From: Escherichia coli
Lineage (GTDB): Bacteria > Pseudomonadota > Gammaproteobacteria > Enterobacterales > Enterobacteriaceae
Direction: 5' to 3' (one strand)
Assembly: GCF_011045215.1 (NCBI RefSeq)
Contig: NZ_CP049201.1
Length of the DNA stretch: 64,000 nucleotides
Shown: positions 47,551 to 51,122 of the stretch, in pieces
How the letters are laid out: the number at the start of each line of letters is the position of its first letter
Numbering within the stretch: position 1 is the first letter of the stretch
Translations under genes and position numbers: made by a program
Notes under the pieces: model-generated
Told to the model about the DNA's origin: nothing
Seen by the model: only the letters and a program-made list of their open reading frames with translations
The model's database searches: none

Positions 47551-48456
47551 TTACCAGCGACCGGACGCGCCGCCACCGCCAGAAGAACCGCCCCCGCCGC
47601 TAAATCCGCCGCCACTTGAGCCTCCACCGGAAGAGGGTGAAGAAGAACCTTTTCTTGAAGCTCTTTCTTTACTGAGTTTTTTGTATTTGGCGCGTAGCTT
47701 TTTATTGACGATAAGCCAAAAAATAACCAGTGGTACGATCGCAAAAGGCGTTAACATACCGCAGGCAACGATTAAATTGGTCCATGGTCCTGGCTCGGCA
47801 ACATAGAGGAATACCATCCCGTAAATGGCGCCAGTGAGAGTGATCCAGGGTAAATTCGACGGATCGGTAAAAACAATAAAATATGAAAGTACCGCCAGCA
47901 ATATAATTACAGCAAGCGATAATGGAATAGGGGGATTGATACTGTAATAATCCCCCCTGTCTTCCGGTAATTCACCATTCAACAGAAGCGCGCCGATATT
48001 TTCGCTTGCCAGTGTTAATCCACCCATCAGGTCATCACTTTTGAAGGCAGGGATCAATATATCCCTGATAATTTTCGCCGCTTGCAGGTCGGTAACCACC
48101 CCTTCCAGCCCGTAGCCAACCTCAATACGAACAGCATGATCCTCCCAGGCAACCAGAAGTAAAATACCATCGTTTCTCTGCTTATCTCCCAGTTTCCAGC
48201 TATCAAAAACGCGTGTTGCATATTGTTCAATGGAATCGTCTCCGGTGGACGGCACTACTAATACAGCGACCTGCGCCCGTGTTTTATGTGTAATATCCTG
48301 CAGTTGCTGTGTCAGTGATTGTTGTTCAGAAGTGCTTAACGTACCAGTAATATCGGTCACCTGTTGGCGCAGTTCCGGCACAGCAATTTGCTGGGCAAGC
48401 CCAGGAAGGCACCACAAAGTGAATAGAATAAAGATTAAGCGCATTACGATCACCAA
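47551..48456 (-). CDS. TPM-domain (YgcG-like) membrane protein, paralog 1 (301 aa); signal peptide, TPM domain, TM segments, Gly/Ser-rich C-terminus ending SGRW
   Basis: Signal-like N-terminus; TPM-like block VTDITGTLS...VAVLVVP...IEQYATRVFDSWKLGDK...DGILLLVAWEDHAVRIEVGYGLEG; hydrophobic segments; tail GGGSSGGGFSGGGGSSGGGGASGRW. Alternative start at 48444. Confidence 0.8.
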   Translation of the reverse strand: MVIVMRLIFILFTLWCLPGLAQQIAVPELRQQVTDITGTLSTSEQQSLTQQLQDITHKTRAQVAVLVVPSTGDDSIEQYATRVFDSWKLGDKQRNDGILLLVAWEDHAVRIEVGYGLEGVVTDLQAAKIIRDILIPAFKSDDLMGGLTLASENIGALLLNGELPEDRGDYYSINPPIPLSLAVIILLAVLSYFIVFTDPSNLPWITLTGAIYGMVFLYVAEPGPWTNLIVACGMLTPFAIVPLVIFWLIVNKKLRAKYKKLSKERASRKGSSSPSSGGGSSGGGFSGGGGSSGGGGASGRW

Positions 48457-49598
48457 CGGCCGGATGAACCGCCGCCTCCTGAAGAACCGCCACCACCGCG
48501 GAAAGAATTTCTCGACGAAGAGCGAGAGTGAGCATTACGATTCCCCGTTTTCCTGTTGCTTTTTTCTCCTGACCCCAGCTTAAGATTGCCAGTAAATTTG
48601 GCCACAATGATCAGCAGAACGATGCCAGCAATGGTTATTGGGCCGATAAAATGATCAATTAACCCAATAATTGTTGAGATGAATGCAATATCTTTATTAC
48701 TGGCGAACACCAGGCACCATCCCACAATAATTATCAGCATCACGACAAACAATGAATTTCGTCCTGATTCACGAACCTGCGGAGTCTTCTTTTGTTTTTT
48801 CACTTTAGAGTTTTTATTTTTTGGGGTCAGCATCATAGGAAATACGCGGCACATATTAAAAACTACCGCGAGACGCTGCTTGCAGGTTGTTGCTAACAAT
48901 AAACTAAAACAAACGACCGATACCCGCCGAATGATGACATCGTCCTGAAAGGAGAAAAACCAGACCATAGGGGTAATCATCGATATCATCCATATGCCAC
49001 GCCGTGGGCGGCTGGCAAATCGCCAGAGGACAACGATGGCAACGATCATCAGCAGTGTCCAGGCAAGACATGGCAGCGAACGTTGCGGATTAGCAAACAG
49101 ATGATTGGCTAAAGCATCCAAAGGGCTAAGGTTCGCTTTGATATGGGTAAACTGTGCGATGCTTTCAATTCCGCCCGTTAATCCAGCAAAGAGATTGTTT
49201 TTTTCGAATTCTGGCTGCATATGGTAACGAACAATTTGCGCAGCTTGTTCCGGCGGCAACATCTCTTCCAGTCCATGTCCAATCTTCATTGACGCCAGCC
49301 CTTCCGGCCATACGACGAGAATTAAGATACCTTCGCCATATCGCTTCTCTCCAACGGGTTTCCAGTGATATACCCCGTATCTCTGCGAGGCTGCAAGTTT
49401 AATGTTTTTGCCCCCTGTGGTCGGCGTAACCAACACGGCCACCTGGAAGTGGTTTTGCTGCTCGAGAGTCTGTAATTGTTGAGTTAAAGCAGTTTGTTCT
49501 TCTGTCGTTAATGTCCCGGTTAAGTCAGTTACTGAAGGCCATTGTTCAGCGAATACCTGAAAACCGCATAGCATCAGAAGTAAGAGAAAAATACGCAT
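48450..49598 (-). CDS. TPM-domain (YgcG-like) membrane protein, divergent paralog 2 (382 aa) with extended membrane region and SGRW tail
   Basis: N-terminus MRIFLLLLMLCGFQVFAEQWPSVTDLTGTLTTEEQ...; several hydrophobic segments, Lys-rich linker (KNKNSKVKKQKK), tail RGGGGSSGGGGSSGRW; overlaps paralog 1 start by 7 nt. Confidence 0.8.
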   Translation of the reverse strand: MRIFLLLLMLCGFQVFAEQWPSVTDLTGTLTTEEQTALTQQLQTLEQQNHFQVAVLVTPTTGGKNIKLAASQRYGVYHWKPVGEKRYGEGILILVVWPEGLASMKIGHGLEEMLPPEQAAQIVRYHMQPEFEKNNLFAGLTGGIESIAQFTHIKANLSPLDALANHLFANPQRSLPCLAWTLLMIVAIVVLWRFASRPRRGIWMISMITPMVWFFSFQDDVIIRRVSVVCFSLLLATTCKQRLAVVFNMCRVFPMMLTPKNKNSKVKKQKKTPQVRESGRNSLFVVMLIIIVGWCLVFASNKDIAFISTIIGLIDHFIGPITIAGIVLLIIVAKFTGNLKLGSGEKSNRKTGNRNAHSRSSSRNSFRGGGGSSGGGGSSGRW

Positions 49599-49612
49599 AT
49601 CAATTCCTTTTG

Positions 49613-50536
49613 TTACCAGCGCCCGGAAGCGCCACCGCCACCAGATGAACCGCCACCACCGCTGAAATTGTCATTGTTGAATGAAGAGGATGACGATGAT
49701 GAATAGTGGGAGGAAGAATTGCTTCTTGTATGGCGTGATGGCTGGTTGACATCACGCATCAAATCCCGAACTTTTTTGCCGAAGGGGGTAAAAGCGATGG
49801 CGACAGCCAGGAACGGTGTGGCGAAGCAGAGTAATGTTGCGAGTACTCCCCAGCTTCCGCTGAAGCCTGCTATAGGTAAAACAAAGGCCAGTACAATAGC
49901 TGCGAAGCAAATTACTCCCAGCGTTTTGATATATCCTCTGGCAGAAATAAACGTCAGTACTATCGCCCAGACTAACAATGCCCACCAACCGCTAAAGGGC
50001 AAAGGGTGATCGGTCGGTGTTATCGTTGCTAAATTATTCCCCGTAAGACGACTTTCAATATCGCTGATCCCCTTTTGTAAACCGCCAGCCAGGTCGCCTT
50101 TTTTAAATGCAGGAATAATACTGTTGCGAATAATTTTCCCGGACTGTGCATCCGTAATAATACCTTCCAGCCCGTAACCGATTTCAATACGCACGGTATG
50201 ATCCTGCCAGGCGACTAACAGTAGAACGCCATCATCACGGTCTTTATCACCCGGTTTCCAGCTATCGAATACCCGCGTTGCGTACTGCTCGATGGTTTCA
50301 TCGCCTGTTGTATCAACCACTAACACGACCAACTGTGCGTGGTTTTTTTGCGTCAGGGCTTTAATCTGGTTGGTCAGGGTGTTTACTTCGCTGTTTGTTA
50401 ATGTGCCGGTTAAGTCATTCACATACTTGGGGGATTCAGGTACTGGAATTTGTGTGGCAAACACAGATGAACAGAAGAAAGCCATAAGGAAGATAAAATT
50501 TCGCATAGAACTTCCCCGCTTAATGAGCATTAGCAT
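49613..50536 (-). CDS. TPM-domain (YgcG-like) membrane protein, paralog 3 (307 aa; likely start at 50506)
   Basis: VNDLTGTLTNSEV...LVVLVVDTTGDETIEQYATRVFDSWKPGDKDRDDGVLLLVAWQDHTVRIEIGYGLEG, closely similar to paralog 1; tail SGGGGSSGGGGASGRW. Confidence 0.8.
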   Translation of the reverse strand: MLMLIKRGSSMRNFIFLMAFFCSSVFATQIPVPESPKYVNDLTGTLTNSEVNTLTNQIKALTQKNHAQLVVLVVDTTGDETIEQYATRVFDSWKPGDKDRDDGVLLLVAWQDHTVRIEIGYGLEGIITDAQSGKIIRNSIIPAFKKGDLAGGLQKGISDIESRLTGNNLATITPTDHPLPFSGWWALLVWAIVLTFISARGYIKTLGVICFAAIVLAFVLPIAGFSGSWGVLATLLCFATPFLAVAIAFTPFGKKVRDLMRDVNQPSRHTRSNSSSHYSSSSSSSFNNDNFSGGGGSSGGGGASGRW

Positions 50537-51122
50537 TCTGGCTAAAATCTATTGTTGGGGCTTTACTTACTGCGGTGACATCATCCGGCAAATAATTTTT
50601 CTTTGGTGTGTAATCCATGACCTTTGCGGTTAATACAGCGGGGAATTTGCGGATAGTGACATTATATTGTTCAATGGCTTTAATATATCTTCCTCGCGCA
50701 ACGGCAATTCTATTTTCACTTCCTTCGAGATGTACCATTAAGTTTTGATAGAGCTCTTGAGCCTTTAACTCAGGGTAACGCTCACTAATTATCGTTAACT
50801 GACCGAGAGTGCGAGTCACCTGCGCCTGGGCCTGTTGCCAGGCTTGTAATTTTTGTGCATCTCCGGGAGCTTGCTGAAGATCGCTGCTGGCGCGATTAGC
50901 CTGGCTACGAGCCAATGTTACGGCTTCCAAAACGTCTTTTTCATGGCTGGAATAACCTTTAATACTGGCGACAAGATTAGGAATAAGATCGGCGCGACGT
51001 TGATATTGATTCAATACCTCAGACCAGGAGGCGTTAACCTGCTCATCATAGGTTTGAATATCGTTATATCCACAGCCTGATAAATTGAAAATAAATATAA
51101 TTACGATGAATATTCTGAGCAT
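50520..51122 (-). CDS. LemA-family protein, probable lipoprotein (200 aa)
   Basis: N-terminus MLRIFIVIIFIFNLSGCGY (lipobox LSGC); LemA-like coiled-coil-rich sequence; first gene of a four-gene operon with the three TPM genes. Confidence 0.78.
   Translation of the reverse strand: MLRIFIVIIFIFNLSGCGYNDIQTYDEQVNASWSEVLNQYQRRADLIPNLVASIKGYSSHEKDVLEAVTLARSQANRASSDLQQAPGDAQKLQAWQQAQAQVTRTLGQLTIISERYPELKAQELYQNLMVHLEGSENRIAVARGRYIKAIEQYNVTIRKFPAVLTAKVMDYTPKKNYLPDDVTAVSKAPTIDFSQNANAH

What the first reader, a model, noticed from the sequence alone, without database searches (positions are those of the whole stretch)
47551..51122. Four-gene LemA + triple TPM-domain operon in the eno-queE interval, next to a CRISPR leader
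A tight minus-strand operon (overlaps of 17 and 7 nt, one 14-nt gap) encodes a LemA-family lipoprotein followed by three tandem YgcG-like TPM-domain membrane proteins. Paralogs 1 and 3 are close duplicates in the TPM block; paralog 2 is divergent with an enlarged membrane region. I recall K-12 having a single gene (ygcG) in this interval, so this looks like a strain-variable, possibly horizontally acquired expansion; by eye it is AT-richer than the flanking eno/pyrG genes. LemA-TPM pairs have no established function, and the position beside a CRISPR array is reminiscent of defence or envelope-stress islands. This is the best candidate for an undescribed system in the window.
Basis: partly seen in the sequence, partly recalled or inferred. 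Interest (0 to 1): 0.7.

Follow-up and report, generated by a model that had tools for sequence, protein, structure and literature searches.

The report
Ancestral LemA plus three-TPM membrane operon
This is an intact, anciently inherited operon for a periplasmic lipoprotein (LemA) and three related inner-membrane TPM-domain proteins of unknown function, and laboratory E. coli K-12 keeps only a decayed remnant of it (ygcG plus the small gene yqcG), so it is a variable but ordinary chromosomal locus rather than a new defence island.

Summary
Four tightly packed minus-strand genes lie between eno and queE: lemA (Pfam LemA, E=5e-48) and three TPM-domain membrane proteins.

- **Variable:** lemA is in 27% of 5,426 complete E. 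coli genomes, the four-gene form in 20%, and K-12-type ygcG in 72%.
- **Not acquired:** lemA and TPM genes sit between queE and eno in E. albertii (same four genes), E. marmotae and Klebsiella. All four genes are under purifying selection (dN/dS 0.04-0.24), with synonymous divergence like queE.
- **K-12 is the reduced form:** yqcG is a relic of the lemA leader and first ~27 codons.
- **Four paralog types:** Escherichia carries TPM types A-D in different combinations, with C/D chimeras.
- **Wider context:** lemA plus a long TPM protein, usually with a short cytoplasmic TPM protein, is a common proteobacterial module. Multiple long copies are rare (3 of 67 loci).
- **No defence link:** there are no PADLOC hits, and CRISPR adjacency is confined to Enterobacteriaceae.

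Function is inferred only. The best guess is a stress-responsive helper for assembling or maintaining inner-membrane complexes. Interest is moderate.

The parts
50520..51122 (-). lemA: a 200-aa LemA-family lipoprotein. It has a signal peptide with lipobox L-S-G-C (Cys17), followed by a helical periplasmic domain.
   Evidence: Pfam PF04011 E=5e-48, model positions 1-149 of 149. PDB 2ETD 'lemA protein' E=2.6e-32. The lipobox and the following GYN are invariant in 12 homologues. dN/dS against E. albertii is 0.04.
49613..50506 (-). TPM-A (297 aa from ATG 50506; the longest ORF starts at 50536). Order of parts: Sec signal peptide, periplasmic TPM domain, three hydrophobic segments, then a basic, Ser-rich and Gly-rich tail ending GGGGSSGGGGASGRW.
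   Evidence: PF04536 E=4e-41. The AF2 TPM domain has pLDDT >90. Foldseek gives TM 0.89 to BA41 (5ANP) and to 7TBR. Topology and tail composition are and the start site. Orthologues occur in E. albertii, E. marmotae and other E. coli. dN/dS 0.15.
48450..49598 (-). TPM-B (382 aa): a divergent TPM domain followed by an enlarged membrane region of about 5-6 hydrophobic segments, a very basic loop at residues 258-277, and the same GRW tail.
   Evidence: PF04536 member. Full-length relatives are found only in Escherichia, at 77% identity or more, after which identity drops to 40% over the TPM domain alone. The membrane module is conserved in Klebsiella proteins that lack the TPM domain. dN/dS 0.24. 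The AF2 model was unusable, pLDDT 38.
47551..48444 (-). TPM-C (297 aa from ATG 48444; the longest ORF starts at TTG 48456). It has the same architecture as A.
   Evidence: PF04536 member. 63% identical to A in the TPM block. Orthologues occur in E. albertii and E. marmotae. Present in 782 of 5,426 E. coli genomes. dN/dS 0.13.
47517..47534 (-). Terminator-like hairpin (GCCAGCC-CGAA-GGCTGGC followed by ATTTTT) just after the TPM-C stop codon, in the 59-nt gap before the convergent eno gene.
   Evidence: Consensus scan only: 7 pairs, 6 of them G-C.
51123..51294 (.). Divergent lemA/queE intergenic region of 172 bp, presumed to hold the operon promoter. It contains a PhoP-box-like direct repeat, TGTTAC-AGGCA-GGTTTA, at 51205-51221 on the minus strand.
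   Evidence: The queE-proximal ~90 nt, including the repeat, are identical in K-12 upstream of yqcG, and parts are conserved in Klebsiella. In K-12 this region binds PhoP-P in EMSA (PMC4974570) and sigma-S holoenzyme in ChIP-seq (PMC4447067). That these factors regulate lemA is inferred, not shown.

Best explanation
What it is (shown): an intact, vertically inherited chromosomal operon. It encodes a periplasmic LemA-family lipoprotein and three paralogous inner-membrane proteins. Each paralog has a cleavable signal peptide, a periplasmic TPM (TLP18.3/Psb32/MOLO-1) domain, three (A, C) or about five (B) membrane helices, and a basic tail ending in an invariant Gly-rich ...GGGGSSGGGG(A/S)SGRW carboxy terminus. 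The positive-inside rule places that tail in the cytoplasm.

The operon is the paralog-expanded Escherichia version of a widespread proteobacterial module, lemA plus a long TPM protein, usually followed by a short cytoplasmic TPM protein. Escherichia holds four long-TPM paralog types (A-D) at this site, shuffled by deletion and by recombination between paralogs. The K-12 yqcG-ygcG arrangement is a reduced derivative that keeps only type D and a relic of the lemA 5' end.

How it most likely works (inferred):
1. The operon is switched on from the promoter region it shares with queE during stationary phase or envelope stress (sigma-S, PhoP).
2. The TPM proteins act as non-enzymatic accessory or assembly factors for inner-membrane protein complexes.
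3. The periplasmic TPM domain docks on the outer face of a client complex while the membrane helices occupy a peripheral slot. Psb32 does this in photosystem II, and TPM subunits do the same in mycobacterial and Campylobacter respiratory complexes.
4. The LemA lipoprotein is a periplasmic partner or scaffold, and the different paralogs supply different membrane modules, and so different clients.

Confidence is about 0.9 for the identity and evolutionary account and about 0.3 for the mechanism.
For: Identity:
- Pfam LemA and TPM matches, PDB sequence matches and Foldseek TM 0.89 to BA41 and 7TBR.
- Invariant lipobox in LemA.
- Topology and basic tails of the TPM proteins.

Inheritance:
- Synteny in E. 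albertii, E. marmotae, K. quasipneumoniae and K. spallanzanii.
- dN/dS 0.04-0.24, with dS like queE.
- No close copies on plasmids or phages.

Module:
- 61 of 67 evaluable species loci have a long TPM gene beside lemA, 44 of 67 also have the short TPM gene, and only 3 have two or more long copies.

Polymorphism and K-12 reduction:
- Gene counts in complete genomes.
- Four-clade tree of the paralogs and C/D chimeras.
- yqcG-lemA colinear alignment score 53 against 12.2 +/- 2.0 for shuffles.

Mechanism by analogy:
- The Psb32 membrane helix occupies the PsbY slot in a photosystem II assembly intermediate (10.1101/2025.05.08.652833).
- TPM folds are subunits of the mycobacterial CIII2CIV2 supercomplex (8HCR_J, 8OVC_V and 6ADQ_J).
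- The TPM protein CcoZ is needed for cbb3 oxidase activity (PMC8267372).
- Comparative genomics argues for a chaperone-like rather than a phosphatase role (PMC11237479 and PMC12419801).
- The B-type membrane module is conserved even where the TPM domain has been deleted, so the membrane part is more than an anchor.

Regulation and stress hints:
- PhoP-P EMSA and sigma-S ChIP on the homologous K-12 region.
- RefSeq names YqcG a cell envelope stress response protein.
- A YgcG-family G253W/W253G change recurs in Cupriavidus evolution experiments for salt and glycerol tolerance.
Against: - No client complex is known, and no experiment addresses this operon.
- An AF2 model of LemA fused to the TPM-A periplasmic domain, built with 38 paired rows, gave pTM 0.47, so no confident interface was predicted.
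- Some TPM domains show weak phosphatase or ATPase/ADPase activity in vitro. The Asp, Leu and Glu positions that bind metal in LMTP1 look conserved here as D41, L46 and E50.
- About 73% of E. coli lack lemA without obvious harm, so any role is conditional.
- Regulation is extrapolated from K-12, where the downstream gene is only a relic.
- The role of the invariant GRW tail is unexplained.
Confidence: 0.4

Rival explanations
1. The TPM domains are periplasmic metal-dependent phosphatases or nucleotidases tethered to the inner membrane. The three paralogs would differ in substrate or location, and LemA would be an accessory protein.
For: The Pfam family is named TPM_phosphatase. [quoted passage not shown] D41, L46 and E50 are invariant among the four E. 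coli paralogs, and the corresponding N-terminal loop binds metal in LMTP1.
Against: The reported activities are weak. Two comparative analyses argue that a phosphatase role is unlikely. Structural data show TPM proteins as stoichiometric or assembly subunits. Klebsiella keeps a B-type protein with the whole TPM domain deleted but the membrane module conserved. The motif spacing here differs by one residue from LMTP1.
Confidence: 0.15
2. The paralog array is a polymorphic cassette locus kept diverse by conflict. The TPM membrane proteins would be entry receptors or translocation factors for phages, colicins or contact-dependent toxins, or would protect against them, and strains would swap or lose cassettes to escape.
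For: Four paralog types occur in at least six combinations, with C/D chimeras and an unrelated 120-aa membrane ORF replacing cassettes in one haplotype. Divergence within the species is deep: type D alleles differ by dS 0.36, and lemA alleles fall to 90-95% identity in 447 genomes. B allele classes are shared between E. coli and E. albertii. LemA-like proteins occur in some phage records.
Against: No PADLOC hit. dN/dS is well below 1 for every gene. No toxin, immunity or mobility genes are adjacent. The same pattern could arise from relaxed selection together with unequal recombination between paralogs that share TPM blocks and an 82-nt conserved 3' end.
Confidence: 0.1
3. LemA is the active part, a membrane-shaping or vesicle-related protein like the magnetosome protein MamQ, and the TPM proteins regulate or anchor it.
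For: LemA's best NCBIfam hit is MamQ, E=2.9e-25. LemA is the most conserved gene of the operon, dN/dS 0.04. lemA and a TPM gene were both up-regulated, along with more outer-membrane vesicles, in a Flavobacterium sppA mutant (PMC13236525).
Against: The MamQ score of 89 bits is far below the curated cutoff of 250. LemA here is a lipoprotein outside the cytoplasm, not an integral membrane protein. The Flavobacterium evidence is correlative.
Confidence: 0.1
4. It is a recently acquired genomic island, or a defence island functionally linked to the neighbouring CRISPR array.
For: GC is 0.463 against 0.506 for the window. The operon is present in only 20-27% of E. coli. CRISPR arrays lie near the locus in Escherichia, and in K. 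spallanzanii an array lies directly between the operon and eno.
Against: The locus is syntenic across Escherichia species and Klebsiella, with divergence like the flanks. K-12's allele is even more AT-rich (0.411) and carries a lemA relic. There are no mobility genes, no close plasmid or phage copies and no PADLOC hits. The array is present whether or not the operon is. Only 1 of about 80 non-enterobacterial lemA loci has any CRISPR-like repeat nearby.
Confidence: 0.04

Closest known systems
E. coli K-12 ygcG (b2778) and the small gene yqcG
   Same: They occupy the same eno-queE interval on the same strand. YgcG has the same architecture: signal peptide, TPM domain, three membrane segments and a GRW tail. 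The upstream region next to queE is identical.
   Different: K-12 YgcG is a fourth paralog type (D), only 38-42% identical to A and C and 28% to B. K-12 has no lemA. yqcG covers the former lemA leader and the first ~27 codons, brought into frame by a 1-nt deletion, and has lost the lipobox.
The unnamed proteobacterial lemA / long-TPM / short-TPM gene cluster (61 of 67 surveyed species loci)
   Same: It has a LemA with the invariant lipobox, immediately followed on the same strand by a long TPM protein with membrane segments and a Gly-rich tail ending ...GGGGASG-x-W.
   Different: The window has three long TPM genes instead of one, which is rare (3 of 67 loci). Like the other enterobacterial loci examined here, it lacks the ~165-aa cytoplasmic TPM protein seen in 44 of 67 loci.
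Psb32 / TLP18.3 (photosystem II assembly and repair factors)
   Same: The same TPM fold faces the extracytoplasmic side and is tethered by C-terminal membrane helices (Foldseek hits 8C7I, 3PVH and 3PTJ). They serve as the mechanistic model for docking on a membrane complex.
   Different: Sequence identity is 14-15%. The NCBIfam Psb32 score is 31-34 bits against a cutoff of 160. Psb32 has one membrane helix and neither a Gly-rich tail nor a LemA partner. E. coli has no photosystem.
BA41 / BA42 (Bizionia argentinensis) and Rhom172_1776 TPM domains
   Same: These are the closest solved structures: 35% identity and TM 0.89 over the whole TPM domain, with sequence E-values of 2e-30 and 2e-29.
   Different: They were studied as isolated soluble domains with weak in-vitro hydrolase activity. 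Their biological role and partners are unknown.
TPM-fold subunits of respiratory complexes (mycobacterial CIII2CIV2 supercomplex subunit; Campylobacter CcoZ)
   Same: TPM fold (8HCR_J, 8OVC_V, 6ADQ_J, TM 0.67-0.70). They are examples of TPM proteins bound to, or needed for, inner-membrane redox complexes.
   Different: Identity is only 14-15%, the domain context differs, and there is no evidence that the E. coli proteins touch a respiratory complex.
MamQ (magnetosome membrane protein, LemA-like) and Thermotoga TM0961 (PDB 2ETD)
   Same: LemA family membership, and a sequence match to 2ETD at E=2.6e-32.
   Different: It is not a MamQ equivalog, scoring 89 bits against a cutoff of 250. It is anchored by a lipid-modified cysteine rather than a membrane helix.
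Bacillus subtilis YdjH in the pspA-ydjGHI operon
   Same: [quoted passage not shown]
   Different: Its partners differ (PspA, band-7), it has no LemA, and no direct sequence comparison was made here.

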